This document shows positions 1,885 to 13,975 of a DNA stretch of 15,756 bases, piece after piece. Under the pieces are notes generated by a model that made no database searches, was not told the origin of the DNA, and saw nothing but the letters and a program-made list of their open reading frames with translations. Source of the stretch: Candidatus Nanopusillus sp. (GTDB lineage Archaea; Nanobdellota; Nanobdellia; Nanobdellales; Nanobdellaceae); NCBI GenBank assembly GCA_028276785.1, contig JAPYVP010000010.1:1-15756 (forward strand). The letters are read 5' to 3'. Every line of letters starts with the position of its first letter. Positions within the stretch are counted from its first letter, which is position 1. The position numbers and the translations under genes are program-made.

Positions 1885-2387
1885 TACTTCTGAATAGCTG
1901 CAAGAGTTTTAGCCAAATTTATAGCATCTAACAAATACTGCTTTAAACCATTTTCTAGTTCTTCATCTAATTTAGTTGGTTTAAATTCCCACTCTGCTGG
2001 ATATATCTCTTTTTTATGTAAAATTACTCTTACAATGTCTCCATCTATTTGTATTTCTGGAATTTGCTCATACTGTATTATATCAATTTGAGAAACAAAC
2101 TTTATGTCTCTCGCATTCTTATCTATTATATACTTAAAGATATTTAAACCAGTAAGCAATATTCCCTGCATTCTATTAGTTTCTTTATTTTGTATTTCTC
2201 CAACTTTCATTGCTATATTTTTATTGATATCTAAATGCAATAAATAATACCTTGACTCACTTACTTCTTGTCCATTATAATAGTACTTTTTAGTAACCTT
2301 TGGTTTTGCTTTTGGCTCTTTTATATTAAACTCTATTATAATAGCTTCTTCTAATTCCTGAGGTTCCTTAAAAACTTTCATACCCAT
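1884..2387 (-). CDS. hypothetical protein (ORF is open to 2411; start at 2387 preferred)
   Basis: The ORF is 175 aa if it starts at 2411. The ATG at 2387 (MGMKVFKEPQ...) lies 33 nt from a minus-strand TTTATATA box (2420..2413). This mirrors exactly the plus-strand box (2391..2398), which lies 33 nt from the ATG at 2424. No family recognised. Confidence 0.65.
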   Translation of the reverse strand: MGMKVFKEPQELEEAIIIEFNIKEPKAKPKVTKKYYYNGQEVSESRYYLLHLDINKNIAMKVGEIQNKETNRMQGILLTGLNIFKYIIDKNARDIKFVSQIDIIQYEQIPEIQIDGDIVRVILHKKEIYPAEWEFKPTKLDEELENGLKQYLLDAINLAKTLAAIQK

Positions 2388-2390
2388 ATA

Positions 2391-2420
2391 TTTATATATA
2401 GGTGATAACATATATATAAA
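2391..2420. promoter_or_regulatory. interleaved divergent promoter pair: perfect inverted repeat TTTATATATA-N10-TATATATAAA
   Basis: Bases 2391-2400 and 2411-2420 are exact reverse complements. Each arm lies 33 nt upstream of the ATG it faces (2424 on plus, 2387 on minus). Confidence 0.55.
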
Positions 2421-2423
2421 TAT

Positions 2424-2741
2424 ATGGGTCAGGTATTAATAGATATTACCGTACCTGTGGCACCGGCAAGTAGAAAATTTATACATCATATATATGCAGG
2501 AGTAGGCTCTGCAGTACCTGAAATTACAAAATATTTTAAAAGAGATTTTGCTAAAATGACTAAGGAATTAAGTACTAAAATTACAGAAAGAGTTAAACCT
2601 GGTAGTTATATTAAGGGACAAATCATTTTAGAATATGATGATAATACAAAAAAGCCGCTTAAAATGTTTACAAAAGAATTAATAATTTATGATTCAGGTA
2701 ATGTATATAATTACCCAATAATTGTAGAAAATAACAAGTAA
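2424..2741 (+). CDS. hypothetical small protein, paralog of 8104..8415
   Basis: 105 aa. It aligns colinearly with the 103-aa product of 8104..8415. Shared motifs are PV.P..R.FI..(I/V)Y near the N-terminus and DDNTK.P.K(M/L)(F/Y)T near the C-terminus. It is the divergent partner of the 1884..2387 operon. Confidence 0.7.
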   Translation: MGQVLIDITVPVAPASRKFIHHIYAGVGSAVPEITKYFKRDFAKMTKELSTKITERVKPGSYIKGQIILEYDDNTKKPLKMFTKELIIYDSGNVYNYPIIVENNK

Positions 2742-6210: not shown

Positions 6211-7068
6211 ATGTTTGAAGGTGACTATTATATTGATGTAGGAATTGATAATAATGATTTTAAACTAATCTTAAATGATAACTCAGGAAATATAATTAAA
6301 GTATTTGATAATACTCCAGAAATAGTTAATCAAGCATGGAGAGAATTAGCTCAACTAATTGATAATTATGATCTAATGATTTATGGTAGAGTAAAGATGT
6401 ATAAAGATGGGGATTATATCTTTGATCTATTTAAAAGATATGCATTTATTATATTTATAGAACAGAATGCTTCTTATTTAGCCAGTTTAGATGGTTATAG
6501 AATAAAATACCCAAACTTTACTTATTACATTGCTACACTATATAAACTTTATAAAGCATTTGTTAATCCAAAAACTACTTTAAGTCCTCAAGAATTTATT
6601 TTAATTATTAATCCTTTATTAACTAAAATAAGACCAAACCTTTCCGGACAAGAACTAATTAAATTATTTGACACCTTTGCAATGAATTATTATAAAGCAA
6701 TAGATTATATAAATAAAGAACGTTTAGGTCTTAATAAGGTTATGATTGCAGCTGAAAGACCAATAAATGAAGAACCTAGTACATTAATTACACAACCTAA
6801 TGAAATGGCTATTAGACCAGCTCCATCAATTAATCAACCAAATGCAATAACAGCTTCAGCCCAACCAATGCCTTCTTCACAAAATCCAGGACCACTACCA
6901 ATGAATAATCCACCACAGGTAGTACCTCAAAGACCTCCAGAAATAGTTCAACCAAAAGAAGAAATAACCAAACCAATAGAAGAGAACAAACCAGTTCCAA
7001 CAGAAGAGGCAAATATTAGAAACATTAAAATAGAGCATAGAAGACTTAAATATTCTGAAAATGGATAG
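6211..7068 (+). CDS. hypothetical protein with a Pro/Gln/Asn-rich C-terminal region
   Basis: 285 aa. A globular N-terminal part of about 180 aa is followed by a low-complexity region (PAPSINQPNAITASAQPMPSSQNPGPLPMNNPPQVVPQRPPEIVQPKEE). It overlaps the integrase start by 8 nt (ATGGATAG). Confidence 0.75.
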   Translation: MFEGDYYIDVGIDNNDFKLILNDNSGNIIKVFDNTPEIVNQAWRELAQLIDNYDLMIYGRVKMYKDGDYIFDLFKRYAFIIFIEQNASYLASLDGYRIKYPNFTYYIATLYKLYKAFVNPKTTLSPQEFILIINPLLTKIRPNLSGQELIKLFDTFAMNYYKAIDYINKERLGLNKVMIAAERPINEEPSTLITQPNEMAIRPAPSINQPNAITASAQPMPSSQNPGPLPMNNPPQVVPQRPPEIVQPKEEITKPIEENKPVPTEEANIRNIKIEHRRLKYSENG

Positions 7069-7642
7069 AATACCCAGACATTGGGTAAAATTTATAGGTG
7101 GAAGACCCCCAACTTTTGAAGAACTATATCATATAATTAGATCTAATTTAGAAGAATATTATAATTTAGTAAGATTGCCAAACCCAAAAAGATCTTACAT
7201 TAAAAGGCTTATGTATTATGCTGTAGCTTATTTACAAATAACTAATGGATTGAGAGCTTCTGAAGCCATTTTTGCTATGAAAGAATTCTTAACAAAGGGT
7301 AATAAGAAATTCCAAATATTAGCTGAAAAATCTAATAAAAAAAGATGGGTTATTGTAGCTGAACCTTTAGCATCAATGGCTCCAGTGCTAAAAACTTACT
7401 TAGATACTTTAAAGAATATTAATAGAGGAAATTATAAGGAATTCCTTAGATATAATATGGGAATTAACCCACATACATTAAGATATGTATTTATATCTAA
7501 AGCTGTTAAAAAGGTTGGCGCAGAAGATACTATGGTATATATGGGCTATAAAGACTTTAGACATATGATGGAATATTATAGAACTATAAGATCTGAAGAA
7601 CTATTAGAAGAATTTATAAATAAAATCATAAATATTGAATAA
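7061..7642 (+). CDS. int: short tyrosine recombinase / integrase (catalytic domain only)
   Basis: 193 aa. It has the Arg-I context TNGLRASEA (R65), the H-x-x-R motif HTLRY (H138, R141), and a C-terminal MGYKDFRHMMEYY with candidate nucleophile Tyr172/173. The usual His/Trp position appears to be Tyr163. Motifs were read by eye. Confidence 0.75.
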   Translation: MDRIPRHWVKFIGGRPPTFEELYHIIRSNLEEYYNLVRLPNPKRSYIKRLMYYAVAYLQITNGLRASEAIFAMKEFLTKGNKKFQILAEKSNKKRWVIVAEPLASMAPVLKTYLDTLKNINRGNYKEFLRYNMGINPHTLRYVFISKAVKKVGAEDTMVYMGYKDFRHMMEYYRTIRSEELLEEFINKIINIE

Positions 7643-11305: not shown

Positions 11306-11891
11306 TATGAACAATACTTTAAATATGATAAATCAAATATTGGGATATCAAGATTATACAAACATAGAGAAGGCTATCTTAACATTATTATACCTTTATA
11401 ATGATAAAGTAGATGTTTATAGATTACATAAGATGGTTTTTTTAGCTTCTTTAGATATTCCCGAATTAAGAGAAGAACTTGATCCGAGGCCATCTATGTA
11501 TAAAGGTATATTTTATGATGAAAATATAGCTGAAGCAATTGAATCTTTAAAATTTGATGGCTTAATAGAGGGGGATACTTTTTTACAGTTATCCTCAAAG
11601 GGAAAGGCCCTCCCATTTCTGTTATCTGATAAAGAAAAAGATATTTATAATGAAGTTGTAGATTTATTTAAGGATACAACTGATGATGAAATCCTTGCAA
11701 TATTCTATTATAAACTATATGACCAAATAAAAATATTAAAACCATTAAAAAGGATCGAAAGCAATAGAAAGAAATTAGCTCTAAGTTTATATCAAAAAGG
11801 AAAAATCTCTATTGAAGCTGCTTCAGAGATTGCTGGTATGAATATAAAAGATTTTATGGAAATGCTAAAGAAAAAGAAATTACTTTCCTAA
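11292..11891 (+). CDS. fusion of a YwgA/SocA(Panacea)-like winged-helix region and a C-terminal UPF0175-type HTH antitoxin domain
   Basis: 199 aa. YRLHKMVFLAS...YKGIFYDENIAEAIESLKFDGLIEG resembles the YwgA/DUF4065 pattern RLQK(L/M)V(Y/F)(L/I)A...YGPYSeeL...IeeL...G(L/F)(I/L). The C-terminus RKKLALSLYQKGKISIEAASEIAGMNIKDFMEMLKKKK resembles the UPF0175 consensus (LA..LY..GK(L/I)S.G.AAE.AGM....F.E.L). It overlaps the upstream gene by 14 nt; an alternative ATG is at 11307. Confidence 0.6.
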   Translation: MDKDNMNNTLNMINQILGYQDYTNIEKAILTLLYLYNDKVDVYRLHKMVFLASLDIPELREELDPRPSMYKGIFYDENIAEAIESLKFDGLIEGDTFLQLSSKGKALPFLLSDKEKDIYNEVVDLFKDTTDDEILAIFYYKLYDQIKILKPLKRIESNRKKLALSLYQKGKISIEAASEIAGMNIKDFMEMLKKKKLLS

Positions 11892-11895
11892 AAAA

Positions 11896-12057
11896 TTATT
11901 GAGCTACTTTTGTCTTAACAAATACATACACTGTTCCTTTACAATATGGACATGTGCCTTTTATAGCTTTCTTTCCATTCTTTAAAGTAACTTCTTGTGG
12001 ATTTTCAACGTTTACTTTTTTCTTACATTTAACACAATATGCCATATATTGCTCCAT
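11896..12057 (-). CDS. small zinc-ribbon protein (DUF5679-like)
   Basis: The hand translation is 53 aa: MEQYMAYCVKCKKKVNVENPQEVTLKNGKKAIKGTCPYCKGTVYVFVKTKVAQ. The CxxC...CxxC spacing and the flanking residues match the DUF5679 pattern AYCVKCK.K.....P..VT.KNG.....G.CP.CG(T)K(V/M). It is below the track cut-off. Confidence 0.6.
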   Translation of the reverse strand: MEQYMAYCVKCKKKVNVENPQEVTLKNGKKAIKGTCPYCKGTVYVFVKTKVAQ

Positions 12058-12121
12058 CAATAATATATATTGCCCCTATTTATAAACTTTTTGAATTATG
12101 CCGCATAACTTAAAGGGCAAA

Positions 12122-12129
12122 TTTATAAA
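12122..12129 (+). promoter_or_regulatory. TATA box upstream of tnpB
   Basis: TTTATAAA lies 30 nt upstream of the ATG at 12152. A second box at 12079-12086 lies further upstream. Confidence 0.45.
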
Positions 12130-12151
12130 TCTTGAATATATAAATAAAAAC

Positions 12152-13330
12152 ATGAGTAGGGGGAAGGGTAAGCTAATGATTGCATATAAATTTAGGGCTT
12201 ATCCTACCCCCGAACAAGAGAAAAAGCTTCATGAAATTTTTGCTACTGAAGCTAAAATCTATAATGAAATGATTAAGAAAGCTAATGAGATGAATACGCA
12301 TGACTTAAAAACTGTTGAAAAGACTTTAAGACAAATAATTCATGATTTAGAAAGCTTATGGAAAGGTAAGATATATTCTATGGTTATATATCCTATTGAA
12401 GAGAAATTACTTTATAACTTAAAAGGTTTAGCTCGATTAAAGAAAAAAGGTAAAAAAGTTGGTTCTCTAAAACCAAAAGAAAAGTTTACTTTCTTATTTT
12501 ATAGACATCATGGGTTTAGATTAGATATTGATGGAGTTGAACTATCTAAATTGGGAAAAATAAAAGTACTCTTTCATAGACCCATAGAAGGAAAAATAAA
12601 AGGGGTTGGAATAAAATTAGATAAAGATAATAAATGGTATGTTTATATTGTATCTGAAATAACTCCAAAACCCTTACCTAAAACTGGTAAGGTTGTTGCT
12701 ATTGATTGGGGCATTGAAAAACTTTTAACTACTTCTGATGGTATTGCTATACAAAACCCTTTAATATTAGATAAATTAGAAGAGAGGATTAAAAGATTAC
12801 AAAAAGCTTTATCAAGAAAAAAGAAAGGCTCTAAAAATTATGAAAAAACCAGAGTTAGATTAGCAAAACTTTATAAGTATGCAAAAAACTTAATTAATGA
12901 TTATTTACATAAGGTTACTACATGGTTAGTTAAAAATTATGATGTAATATATGTAGAAAATATAAGGGTTGAAAAATTAATACAAACAAATAAAGCTAAA
13001 AAGTTAAGGAGGCATATTTTACAAGCTAATTACTTTAAGTTTTTGGAGCTTTTAGAGTATAAAGCTAAATTGTATGGTAAACAGGTTATAAAAGTCTCAC
13101 CTAAAAATACATCTAAAAAATGTTCTAGATGTGGCTATGTTAATCAAAAGTTATCTCTAAATGATAGAATATTTAAATGTCCTAAATGTGGTTTAGAAAT
13201 TGATAGAGACTATAATGCTGCTCTAAATATCTTAAATGCGGGGCTGGGGCAGCCCAAAGCGCCTGTGGAGGGGAAACCTCTGCTGTACATCTCCTTCTCT
13301 GAGGGGGTGTACAGCAAGTTTCCCGGATGA
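12152..13330 (+). CDS. tnpB: TnpB (OrfB) RNA-guided endonuclease, IS200/IS605 family
   Basis: It has the typical N-terminus MIAYKFRAYPTPEQEKKL (that ATG is at 12176; the ORF is open from 12098). The RuvC motifs are VVAIDWGIEK (D), VIYVENIRV (E) and EIDRDYNAALNI (D). The zinc finger is CSRCGYV...CPKCGLE. The start at 12152 is chosen on TATA spacing, and 12176 is equally plausible. Confidence 0.9.
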   Translation: MSRGKGKLMIAYKFRAYPTPEQEKKLHEIFATEAKIYNEMIKKANEMNTHDLKTVEKTLRQIIHDLESLWKGKIYSMVIYPIEEKLLYNLKGLARLKKKGKKVGSLKPKEKFTFLFYRHHGFRLDIDGVELSKLGKIKVLFHRPIEGKIKGVGIKLDKDNKWYVYIVSEITPKPLPKTGKVVAIDWGIEKLLTTSDGIAIQNPLILDKLEERIKRLQKALSRKKKGSKNYEKTRVRLAKLYKYAKNLINDYLHKVTTWLVKNYDVIYVENIRVEKLIQTNKAKKLRRHILQANYFKFLELLEYKAKLYGKQVIKVSPKNTSKKCSRCGYVNQKLSLNDRIFKCPKCGLEIDRDYNAALNILNAGLGQPKAPVEGKPLLYISFSEGVYSKFPG

Positions 13331-13425
13331 AGCAGGAAACATGTGGTAAGCCTGGAAAGGGCTTACCTAAATAGGAGAAAAGCAGTAAAGCAGAAAAGCA
13401 GAGAGAAAGGCCCACTTCTGTGAGC
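13235..13425 (+). ncRNA. putative TnpB omega RNA (reRNA) scaffold overlapping the tnpB 3' end
   Basis: This is a G+C-rich island with consecutive plus-strand stems. GGGCTG/CAGCCC pairs 13241-46 with 13250-55. GAGG/CCTC pairs 13268-71 with 13277-80. CTGTACA/TGTACAG pairs 13283-89 with 13308-14. GGTAAGCC/GGCTTACC pairs 13345-52 with 13360-67. Known TnpB omega RNAs overlap the 3' end of tnpB and the right end of the element. The exact ends are unknown. Confidence 0.6.
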
Positions 13426-13430
13426 TTTCT

Positions 13431-13438
13431 TTTATAAA
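13431..13438 (+). promoter_or_regulatory. TATA box for 13460..13975
   Basis: TTTATAAA lies 29 nt upstream of the ATG at 13460. It is part of the recurring 13-14-mer TTTATAAACTTTT(T), also found at 12079 and 14773. Confidence 0.5.
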
Positions 13439-13459: not shown

Positions 13460-13975
13460 ATGAAATTAAAGCTAGATCCTAAAATTTTAAACATGCCTCT
13501 TGAAGATAAAATAAAAGATGCTTTAAAAGATGCTAAAAATATAGAAGATAAGATTTATCTTTCCATAGCATATTTTCAATATATAAATAAGCTCAGTACT
13601 AACAAAGCTATTAGATTATTTAAGGAACTCTTATTATCCGATGGGCAGAAATTAGGTTATCCCTTTTCGATTTATTATGCACAAGATAATAAACTTTTAA
13701 TAAGAAAAATAGAGATACCATTAAAAATTGACGAATTTTTGGCAAATTATATTAATGAAATTAAAAACTATAAGAGTTTAATAAGTAAAGTAACTAAAAG
13801 CACATATAATAAATATTTAAGAAAGTATTTAAATATAAAATCTTCAGATATTTTAGCTTATATAATATATAAAATGATTGAAGAGATAGGTATACACACT
13901 TTAATATCTTTAAGAAAACATTGGGCTTTATTCAGTAGGAATCTACTACCTTATTTATTAAAAAATAAGACTTAA
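13460..13975 (+). CDS. integrase-like paralog lacking the catalytic arginines (second copy)
   Basis: 171 aa. SIAYFQYINKLSTNKAIRLFKEL aligns with the integrase segment AVAYLQITNGLRASEAIFAMKEF, placing Ser at the R65 position. It has no H-x-x-R equivalent (SSDILAY). It shares EIPLKID, SLRKHW and PYLLK with 10781..11305. Confidence 0.65.
   Translation: MKLKLDPKILNMPLEDKIKDALKDAKNIEDKIYLSIAYFQYINKLSTNKAIRLFKELLLSDGQKLGYPFSIYYAQDNKLLIRKIEIPLKIDEFLANYINEIKNYKSLISKVTKSTYNKYLRKYLNIKSSDILAYIIYKMIEEIGIHTLISLRKHWALFSRNLLPYLLKNKT

What the first reader, a model, noticed from the sequence alone, without database searches (positions are those of the whole stretch)
12060..13430. A tnpA-less TnpB with an intact RuvC triad and a structured omega-RNA region sits inside a virus-like element
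TnpB shows the D (IDWG), E (YVENI) and D (DRDYNAALNI) motifs and a CxxC...CxxC zinc finger, so it looks nuclease-competent. The 3' end of the gene and about 100 nt downstream form a G+C-rich run of four plus-strand stems, as expected for an omega RNA. No TnpA is present. The omega-RNA guide is normally the sequence just beyond the right end. Here that sequence is the promoter and 5' end of the second integrase-like paralog. The TnpB could be a selfish passenger. It could also have been recruited for element maintenance, homing or inter-element conflict.
Basis: partly seen in the sequence, partly recalled or inferred. Interest (0 to 1): 0.6.

Follow-up and report, generated by a model that had tools for sequence, protein, structure and literature searches.

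The report
Virus TnpB with collapsed guide array
A virus of tiny hot-spring archaea (Nanopusillus) keeps an intact RNA-guided nuclease, TnpB; in sister viruses the end of its guide RNA is repeated into a small CRISPR-like array whose guides often match three recombination sites in the host chromosome, and in this copy the array has shrunk to one guide.

Summary
An intact TnpB lies at 12152/12176-13330, with a D-E-D triad and a zinc finger. Its G+C-rich tail (13202-13415) is a structured, co-varying omega-RNA scaffold. No TnpA was found in the genome.

The window is a relative of Nanoarchaeotal virus 1 (NAV1). The gene is not a fresh insertion: it is single-copy, sits at the same place in about 20 related contigs, and is under purifying selection (dN/dS 0.08-0.21).

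The scaffold ends sharply at CCCAC (13411-13415). The guide is 13416-~13431, just upstream of the next gene's TATA box, not that gene's 5' end.

New: in relatives the last ~11 nt of the scaffold plus a ~14-16-nt variable segment is repeated 2-10 times (period ~26 nt). Spacers are shared and shuffled between viruses. 19 of 69 distinct spacers match, in one register, three 28-bp XerA/dif-type (11-6-11) sites of Nanopusillus chromosomes. NAV-like proviral DNA abuts one of these sites. A left arm of such a site also lies at 12098-12108, upstream of tnpB. In this window the array has collapsed to one unit, and a second sample confirms this.

Most likely this is a domesticated viral TnpB aimed at these attachment-type sites. 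Function is inferred; no RNA data exist. The scan has seen a similar iterated guide end behind another archaeal virus's TnpB (e1-5356491).

The parts
11896..12060 (-). DUF5679 zinc-ribbon gene, always next to tnpB in NAV1-like viruses
   Evidence: Pfam PF18930, E 5.5e-18. Adjacent to tnpB in all NAV-group loci and in no other TnpB context fetched. A host paralogue lies at G000:C39:32027-32179. It is missing together with tnpB in the TnpB-less relatives L284-L286.
12079..12086 (+). TATA-like box (TTTATAAA) of the tnpB transcription unit
   Evidence: Read from the sequence. The same box precedes the next gene at 13431-13438, 29 nt before its ATG. By that spacing, transcription of tnpB would start near 12105-12110 (inference).
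12098..12114 (.). Half of a XerA/dif-type site: 11-nt left arm (10 of 11 identical to the host arm ATGTCGCATAA) plus a 6-nt central-like stretch, with no right arm
   Evidence: The same motif stands at the same place in most TnpB-bearing NAV-like loci, with 0-1 mismatches (L042, L043, L288, L052, L058, L060 and others). The ORF's first ATG is part of it.
12152..13330 (+). tnpB coding sequence (392 aa from M19; alternative start 12176 gives 384 aa)
   Evidence: domains, D203/E287/D371, two CxxC motifs, dN/dS 0.08-0.21.
13202..13415 (+). omega-RNA scaffold (minimum extent). Stems: 13241-13255; 13265-13283; 13285-13312 (extended by 13216-13219 with 13313-13316); 13318-13340, whose loop holds the stop codon; 13345-13367. 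Then a purine-rich linker, 13368-13410
   Evidence: Homology to relatives ends exactly at 13415. In mobile relatives the right end of the element is the homologous GTTCAC, and the flanks diverge directly after it.
13405..13415 (+). Terminal unit of the scaffold (five purines, G, CCCAC). This is the sequence repeated as the 'repeat' of the arrays in relatives
   Evidence: 74 internal repeats; G-CCCAC is near-invariant and preceded by ~5 A/G-rich positions, the same as the scaffold ends.
13416..13431 (+). The single guide of this copy (TTCTGTGAGCTTTCTT)
   Evidence: First bases after the scaffold end. Unique in the genome. It corresponds to the last, promoter-adjacent unit of the relatives' arrays. 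The one-unit form is reproduced without a difference by a contig of a second sample (run X2).
13431..13438 (+). TATA box of the downstream 171-aa gene (13460-13975)
   Evidence: Sequence. Homology among relatives resumes here, after the variable array.

Best explanation
This is a resident, nuclease-competent TnpB-omega-RNA module of a NAV1-like virus of Nanopusillus. It is no longer a mobile insertion sequence.

How it is built. The tnpB mRNA carries the scaffold in its 3' end. The scaffold stops at CCCAC (13415), and the next ~14-16 nt are the guide. In the viral lineage, the last ~11 nt of the scaffold together with a guide have been copied in series into a cas-less, CRISPR-like mini-array of 2-10 units.

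What it targets. More than a quarter of the distinct guides are aimed at the inner part of three 28-bp XerA/dif-type sites of the host chromosome. They read from site position 7, directly after ATG(T/A)CG. The module itself lies between a left arm of such a site (12098-12108) and, in relatives, a unit that supplies positions 7-22 of the site. In the usual TnpB logic (target motif = left flank, guide = right flank), an uninterrupted site is therefore the natural target.

Likely role. NAV-like proviral DNA abuts one of these sites. I therefore infer that the nuclease cuts intact attachment-type sites. These could be empty host sites (which would punish loss of the provirus or promote re-insertion), the matching sites of competing integrative elements and viruses, or both.

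This copy. The array has collapsed by recombination between repeats to one unit, so only the promoter-side flank is left as guide.

Shown: gene integrity, RNA structure, sharp junction, arrays, spacer-site matches, synteny. Inferred: that the RNA is made, that downstream units are used, the target motif, and the biological role.
For: - Family and catalytic residues.
- Resident gene: one copy in the genome. Same neighbours in NAV1 and ~20 contigs from several studies. dN/dS 0.08-0.21, with 384 codons free of indels in 9 loci. No TnpA.
- Scaffold.
- Junction: homology ends at 13415. TnpA-bearing relatives at ~50% identity end at the homologous GTTCAC, with unrelated flanks.
- Arrays: 1-10 units, period 22-28 nt (mode 26), repeat equal to the scaffold end. 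All units are on the tnpB strand and GCCCAC is almost confined to the array. Spacers are shared in different orders. L048 and L049 differ only in the scaffold-proximal spacer.
- Targets: 19 of 69 distinct spacers have at most 2 mismatches in their first 14 nt to host sites, all in one register, against 0.05 expected from shuffles. Identity is ~1.0 for positions 1-14 and falls after 14-16.
- Own genome: exact 14-mers number 5, against 0 for shuffled spacers. Three of the five are sites A, B and C, each preceded by TGTCG.
- Host sites: three per genome in all 12 genus members, with 11-6-11 architecture (architecture as in PMC2958812). The genome has one XerA-like recombinase.
- Provirus: virus-like genes run up to a type-B site in a 113-kb Nanopusillus contig, and host genes follow.
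- Half-site upstream of tnpB.
- Precedent: Lalka phage Cas12r spacers target elements that use the same attachment sites (bioRxiv 10.64898/2026.04.20.719267).
Against: - The closest mobile relatives insert after TTTAA(C), and SisTnpB1 uses TTTAA. TGTCG would be a changed target motif. It fits only the relaxed WNHNN rule reported for SisTnpB1, whose relatedness to this protein I did not establish.
- No conserved complement to CCCAC lies in the 520 nt upstream. The purine tail's fit to the pyrimidine apex of stem C is no better than in shuffles. How a downstream unit would join the scaffold is therefore unexplained.
- TnpB-less relatives keep one AGAAG-CCCAC unit, so the motif might have a role of its own.
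- About 70% of the spacers have no convincing target.
- This window carries none of the site-matching guides.
- The match is short (14-16 nt).
Confidence: 0.5

Rival explanations
1. Selfish relic. A tnpB-only remnant of an IS200/IS605 element inserted once in an ancestor of these viruses and is simply carried along. The short repeats are replication-slippage products of the right end, and the units are fossils with no use.
For: No TnpA and a single copy. The closest relatives are ordinary tnpA-tnpB elements. Array length varies as expected of slippage, and this copy has lost all units but one. TnpB-less relatives exist.
Against: Purifying selection without a single frameshift in 9 diverged loci. 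Extra constraint on the RNA part. Slippage copies existing sequence, so it does not explain new spacers, nor why 19 of 69 match three host sites in one register.
Confidence: 0.17
2. DNA-level sites. The units are protein-binding or recombination sites: a stack of degenerate XerA/integrase sites, a viral dif/attP region, or operators of the downstream promoter. They merely lie next to tnpB, and their likeness to host sites reflects common descent by site-specific recombination.
For: The host-like units keep the inner arm, the central 6 bp and part of the second arm. The A-type unit stays similar to the host site further on: 24 of 28 if joined to the upstream ATGTCG (joining is my inference). 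One unit survives in TnpB-less relatives. The array sits just upstream of a promoter. Flanks of host sites are swapped between genomes, so those sites do recombine.
Against: The outer 6 nt of both arms are missing. The register starts at site position 7, not at the arm/central border where tyrosine recombinases exchange strands. Most units have no site-like sequence at all. The repeat equals the scaffold's 3' end and all units are co-oriented with tnpB. The integrated TnpB-less provirus has this locus in its interior, not at its junction.
Confidence: 0.15
3. Classical single-guide homing only. The one guide taken from the right flank directs cutting of TnpB-less sister genomes at this locus, so that the module is copied in by repair. 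The arrays of relatives are irrelevant.
For: The architecture in this window is exactly scaffold plus one flank-derived guide. TnpB-less sister viruses exist in the same habitats.
Against: The corresponding stretch of the TnpB-less relatives does not match the guide. The missing block there is larger than tnpB, because it includes DUF5679 and the promoter. No second match to the guide was found in the genome or in the loci fetched.
Confidence: 0.1

Closest known systems
IS200/IS605 TnpB-omega-RNA (OMEGA) systems: ISDra2 TnpB (PDB 8h1j, 8exa) and Sulfolobus islandicus SisTnpB1 (bioRxiv 10.1101/2023.03.06.531077)
   Same: Domain order, D-E-D RuvC triad, zinc finger. The scaffold overlaps the 3' end of the gene. 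There is a sharp scaffold/guide boundary at the element's right end, and the guide is taken from the flank.
   Different: No TnpA, no recognisable left-end hairpin, one copy, fixed position in a viral genome. In relatives the guide end is iterated. The candidate target flank TGWCG differs from the TTTAA(C) of the nearest mobile relatives.
TranC (transposon-CRISPR intermediates) and the small type V-U/V-F systems; arrays thought to arise 'by serial duplication of omega-RNA segments' (PMC10691335; TranC as summarised in PMC13565253)
   Same: A TnpB-sized effector followed downstream by a repeat-spacer array built from its own guide RNA. No cas1, cas2 or cas4.
   Different: The repeat is only ~11 nt (6 invariant) and the spacers ~14-16 nt, far shorter than CRISPR repeats. 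No anti-repeat or tracr-like partner was found. The TnpB is not enlarged. Function of the downstream units is unproven.
Cas12r-CRISPR of Thermus Lalka phages (bioRxiv 10.64898/2026.04.20.719267)
   Same: A virus-borne type V-like nuclease whose spacers are aimed at integrative elements that share the virus's attachment sites, proposed as conflict between mobile elements.
   Different: Lalka phages have a true CRISPR array and a Cas12, and the attachment sites are tRNA genes. Here the matches are to the XerA/dif-type sites themselves, in an archaeal DPANN host, with a plain TnpB.
Xer/dif sites of archaea (XerA; PMC2958812)
   Same: The host targets are 28-bp sites of two 11-bp inverted arms and a 6-bp centre. 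They are intergenic and conserved across the genus, and each genome has one XerA-like recombinase.
   Different: Three sites per genome, with three different centres, rather than one. Their flanks are exchanged between genomes. Proviral DNA abuts one of them. Their role (dif, attachment site or other) is untested.

Membership tests
TnpB (OMEGA RNA-guided nuclease) | HTH/WED-REC, split RuvC and zinc-ribbon (TNB) domain order | tested here: met
   Pfam PF12323, PF01385 and PF07282, all above cut-off. Full-length alignment to ISDra2 TnpB.
TnpB (OMEGA RNA-guided nuclease) | Catalytic D-E-D of RuvC on the columns of ISDra2 D191/E278/D361 | tested here: met
   D203, E287, D371. Invariant in the alignment with Sulfolobales relatives. 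That the second D of DRD is the catalytic one is my assignment from the family motif.
TnpB (OMEGA RNA-guided nuclease) | Structured guide-RNA scaffold overlapping the 3' end of the gene, with a sharp boundary to a variable guide | tested here: met
TnpB (OMEGA RNA-guided nuclease) | The RNA is made, bound by the protein, and directs target-motif-dependent DNA cleavage | not testable with these tools
   No RNA run holds the stretch. Biochemistry is needed.
Active IS200/IS605 insertion sequence | TnpA (Y1 or serine) in the element or the genome | tested here: not met
   PF01797 not found in the 85%-complete genome. None in the window.
Active IS200/IS605 insertion sequence | Several copies in different contexts | tested here: not met
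   One copy in the genome. Always the same neighbours in relatives.
Active IS200/IS605 insertion sequence | Left-end subterminal hairpin preceded by the target motif | tested here: inconclusive
   Relatives have TTTAAC followed by a G5...C5 hairpin. The window has CATAAC-TT-AAAGGGC at 12104-12118 and no hairpin. Local alignment to the relatives' left end is no better than shuffles.
CRISPR-Cas type V / TranC | Array of direct repeats of about 20 nt or more, with spacers | tested here: not met
   This window has one unit. Relatives have 2-10 units, but the repeat is ~11 nt.
CRISPR-Cas type V / TranC | Repeat pairs with an anti-repeat (tracr-like part of the split scaffold) | tested here: not met
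   No conserved complement of the repeat. The purine/pyrimidine fit is not above shuffles.
CRISPR-Cas type V / TranC | Spacers match other genetic elements or genomes | tested here: met
   Met in relatives only: 19 of 69 spacers match host 28-bp sites. No target was found for the window's own guide.
Xer/dif-type site (the host targets) | Two 11-bp inverted arms, a 6-bp centre, conserved among relatives, with a Xer recombinase present | tested here: met
   criteria from PMC2958812.
Xer/dif-type site (the host targets) | Single site in the terminus region that resolves chromosome dimers | tested here: not met
   Three sites per genome, for example at 153.7, 294.6 and 451.6 kb of 606 kb in G004. 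Function not testable here.

The most novel reading that the evidence does not exclude
NAV1-like viruses carry a natural, working intermediate between a transposon guide RNA and CRISPR. A plain TnpB has the last ~11 nt of its scaffold plus a ~14-16-nt guide iterated into a cas-less array that gains, loses and shuffles units. The virus uses it to cut the XerA/dif-type attachment sites of its DPANN host and of rival integrative elements. The ancestral guide arose because the element sits inside a copy of such a site.
Probability: 0.4. Interest if true: 0.85.

Novelty: new variant of a known kind. Interest (0 to 1): 0.72.

Why it matters
CRISPR arrays of type V systems are thought to have grown from serial duplication of omega-RNA segments (PMC10691335), but very early stages are rarely seen.

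Here a population of closely related viruses shows every stage from one unit to ten, with an unenlarged TnpB and an extremely short repeat. The steps of array birth, turnover and collapse can therefore be compared directly.

The targets are also unusual. They are not a rival's genes but the short recombination sites at which these viruses seem to integrate. That would extend the 'cut the empty site' logic of transposon TnpB to a whole virus, and it gives a testable handle on virus-host and virus-virus conflict in Nanoarchaeota, where almost nothing is known.

A thermostable TnpB that accepts guides as short as 14-16 nt, and possibly guides supplied in series, could also interest tool builders.

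Tried and rejected
- Rfam: nothing at the locus, only weak palindrome hits at 2374-2436. No tRNAs.
- Host site misreadings: I first took the site at G000:C9 for a tRNA piece, a C/D-box sRNA or an rRNA processing stem. ARAGORN and Rfam found nothing, and the rRNA genes lie elsewhere.
- Expression: no RNA holder listed among public runs, so expression could not be examined. Laying contigs gave only DNA forms.
- NAV1 record: not in the phage collection, and the records behind my loci are not held for whole-record search. I read only 15.9 of NAV1's 35.6 kb.
- IMG/VR: it holds no close relative of this TnpB or of its two neighbours. A 14-nt spacer scan there gave more than 117 scattered hits, as chance would, so it is uninformative.
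- Spacers that do not resemble the host sites: no convincing target in G000, in 12 genus genomes or in the viral loci. The 16-nt hits straddle repeat/spacer borders or lie in A+T-rich DNA.
- Anti-repeat search and the pseudoknot idea: negative or not above shuffles.
- Left-end homology: not above shuffles.
- Exact host-virus junction in L284: not resolved. No tRNA there, and the far end of the provirus lies at or beyond the contig end.
- Two readings of the target motif remain open: TGWCG from the register of the matches and the upstream half-site, or NATAA by likeness of CATAAC-TT to the relatives' TTTAAC-TT.
Full report
**What the window is.** The window is the whole of contig C29 of a 598-kb, 85%-complete Nanopusillus-type genome bin (the genus name comes from earlier notes of this scan). 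Its gene order is that of Nanoarchaeotal virus 1 (NAV1, MN056826.1): TBP, Hjc-like nuclease, a UPF0175 fusion, a DUF5679 zinc ribbon on the minus strand, tnpB, then a 171-aa gene. Several metagenome contigs share this order.

**The gene.** ORF 12098-13330 carries the three TnpB Pfam domains. It aligns end to end with ISDra2 TnpB (8h1j, E 4e-41). D203, E287 and D371 fall on the catalytic columns, and two CxxC pairs are present. The N-terminus of Sulfolobales relatives aligns with M19 (12152), while NAV1 is annotated from the M27 equivalent (12176). The ATG at 12098 is only 19 nt from the TATA box (12079-12086), whereas the next gene has 29 nt, so it is unlikely to be a start.

Across nine diverged loci the 384 common codons have no indel, and dN/dS is 0.08-0.21. 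The genome has one copy and no Y1 transposase. The closest relatives outside the viral group are about 50% identical and are ordinary tnpA-tnpB elements of Sulfolobales, Thermoplasmata and Marsarchaeota. The virus therefore holds a long-retained, selected tnpB, not an active insertion sequence.

**The RNA.** 13202-13431 folds far better than shuffles (z -4.8). An RNAalifold consensus of 19 sequences has five stems, and 13 pairs carry compensatory changes. Synonymous sites of the last 44 codons and the 60 nt after the stop are more conserved than the rest of the gene and than the upstream spacer.

DNA homology with all relatives stops exactly at 13415, after CCCAC. In the mobile relatives the homologous GTTCAC is the last base of the element, and unrelated flanks follow it. 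Hence the scaffold ends at 13415 and the guide is 13416 to about 13431. That stretch ends at the TATA box of the next gene (13431-13438). It is not that gene's 5' end.

**The array.** Between the scaffold end and that promoter, the relatives carry a variable number of units. The window has 1, L020 has 2, NAV1 has 6, and L050 and L057 have 10. Each unit is the scaffold's own end (about five purines, G, CCCAC) plus a variable stretch. The period is 22-28 nt, with a mode of 26. All units lie on the tnpB strand, and GCCCAC is almost confined to this place in the viral DNA.

Spacers recur in different viruses in different order. L048 and L049 differ only in the unit next to the scaffold. The arrays come from independent assemblies of several projects. 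The window's one-unit form is reproduced without a difference in a second sample, and a third sample holds the two-unit form. The window's guide corresponds to the last, promoter-side unit of the others, so here the array has collapsed, most simply by recombination between the first and last repeat (inference).

This is the arrangement proposed for the birth of type V arrays, 'serial duplication of omega-RNA segments' (PMC10691335; TranC, PMC13565253), but with a much shorter repeat.

**What the spacers match.** A near-universal spacer matched the end of contig C9 of the same genome. The place is a 28-bp palindrome of two 11-bp arms and a 6-bp centre, which is the architecture of Xer/dif sites (PMC2958812). 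Every one of the 12 genus genomes has such sites, usually three, with three different centres: CAGAAA, CCAAGA and CTAACG or close variants. In a closed genome they lie 140-300 kb apart. The own genome has one XerA-like recombinase.

Of 69 distinct spacer strings, 19 match such a site with at most 2 mismatches in their first 14 nt. All 19 are in the same register (site position 7, directly after ATG(T/A)CG), all three site types are represented, and one type is matched in both orientations. Other registers give 0-1 matches and shuffled spacers give 0.05. Identity is near 1.0 for positions 1-14 and drops after 14-16, as expected of a seed-weighted guide.

In the own genome, exact 14-mers number five against none for shuffles. 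Three of the five are sites A, B and C. The other spacers have no convincing target.

**What the host sites are.** They are not near rRNA or tRNA genes. Their flanks are exchanged between genomes: a flank joined to site C in G000 is joined to site A in G002. That points to recombination at the sites.

A TnpB-less NAV-like element lies in a 113-kb Nanopusillus contig. Virus-like genes, including a TBP-like fragment, run up to a type-B site. Beyond the site the DNA is 90% identical to the host side of site B in G000. A fragment of the same glycosyltransferase gene lies 90 nt from site B in G000 itself. I take the sites to be attachment sites of these viruses, but only one junction was seen.

**A half-site upstream of tnpB.** At 12098-12108 stands an 11-nt arm that is 10 of 11 identical to the host arm, and 11 of 11 in L042, L043 and L288. 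A centre-like hexamer follows, but no second arm. It is at the same place in most TnpB-bearing relatives. Joining ATGTCG from there to the A-type unit gives 24 of 28 identities with host site A (my arithmetic).

The module thus looks as if it lies inside a viral copy of such a site. In the usual TnpB logic, an intact site would then be the natural target. That would also explain why the A-type guide is nearly universal.

The caveat is the target motif. The nearest mobile relatives insert after TTTAA(C) and SisTnpB1 uses TTTAA, with a relaxed WNHNN rule in vitro. CATAAC-TT at 12104-12111 also resembles their TTTAAC-TT junction, which would instead make NATAA the motif. I could not decide between the two readings.

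**TnpB-less relatives.** In L284-L286, 96 nt replace 11859-13425 (DUF5679, promoter, tnpB, scaffold and guide), yet one AGAAG-CCCAC remains. This is either a scar of deletion or a sign that the motif predates or outlives tnpB. It is the main support for the rival DNA-site reading.

**How it most likely works.**
- Shown: an intact nuclease gene under selection, a conserved scaffold, a sharp junction, iterated scaffold ends with diverse spacers, and specific in-register matches to host recombination sites.
- Inferred: transcription from the TATA box at 12079; processing of the mRNA into the guide RNA, as in other TnpBs; and cutting of intact 28-bp sites in empty host chromosomes or in rival elements that carry the same core. 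The array DNA would be protected because CCCAC replaces the flank.
- Unknown: how units beyond the first would be used. Either recombination between repeats brings a new unit next to the scaffold, which the observed length variation and the collapse in this window make plausible, or short repeat+guide RNAs work in trans. I found no base-pairing partner for the second option.
- Closest functional parallel: Lalka phage Cas12r, whose spacers hit integrative elements that share the phage's attachment sites.

**Verdict.** The guide assignment needed correction. I rate this a new variant of a known kind (a TnpB on the way to a CRISPR-like system), with moderate confidence in the proposed role.

Noticed in passing
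G000:C9:4875-4902, C35:3862-3889, C28:6158-6185; G004:C1:153675, 294618, 451567: Nanopusillus genomes carry three 28-bp 11-6-11 palindromes with three different centres, each near a TTAATCTAGGTTAA-like motif. Their flanks are swapped between genomes (a flank at site C in G000 is at site A in G002), as if chromosomes rearrange at these sites. Three dif-like sites per 0.6-Mb genome is unusual.
   Followed up: partly
L284:1-17624 (113-kb JGI contig Ga0080008_143969): A NAV-like element without tnpB, DUF5679 and the array seems integrated in a Nanopusillus chromosome, next to a type-B site (17597-17624). The other junction was not reached.
   Followed up: partly
G000:C35:3484-3799 and G000:C28:1548-3742: Host contigs hold virus-like genes close to sites B and C: a fragment of the glycosyltransferase that ends the L284 provirus, and 71%-identical copies of NAV1's glycosyltransferase and methyltransferase. 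These are either old proviral remnants or genes the virus took from the host.
   Followed up: partly
L018 (NAV1):15258-15273 and L018:1204-1217: NAV1 has an A-type core (GATAACAGAAATTAT) outside its array, matched exactly by spacers of other viruses (L057, L020). NAV1's own variant spacer has two mismatches to that core. The own spacer instead matches, 14 of 14, the minus strand of NAV1's TBP gene. Chance is unlikely for the first and unclear for the second.
   Followed up: no
L005 = G006:C1:404408-407860: A closed Nanopusillus chromosome holds a broken TnpB of the Sulfolobales type (54% identity, stop inside). Its right end is GTTCAC, followed by a second CTCAC and a duplicated ATCATCATAAT.
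   Followed up: no
L054, L055, L056: TnpBs 69% identical to this one sit in other, even A+T-richer contexts. Their scaffold is shorter (no fifth stem, no purine linker), ends AAAG-TCCAC, and has a single G-rich guide and a T-run. They have no array and no DUF5679 neighbour.
   Followed up: partly
window 2374-2436: A near-perfect A+T-rich palindrome gives weak microRNA-family hits on both strands in Rfam (E 0.05-0.25). It lies in the short divergent control region between 1884-2411 and 2424-2741.
   Followed up: no
The only weak hit of that family in the window is in 7061-7642 (E 0.004, below cut-off).
   Followed up: no
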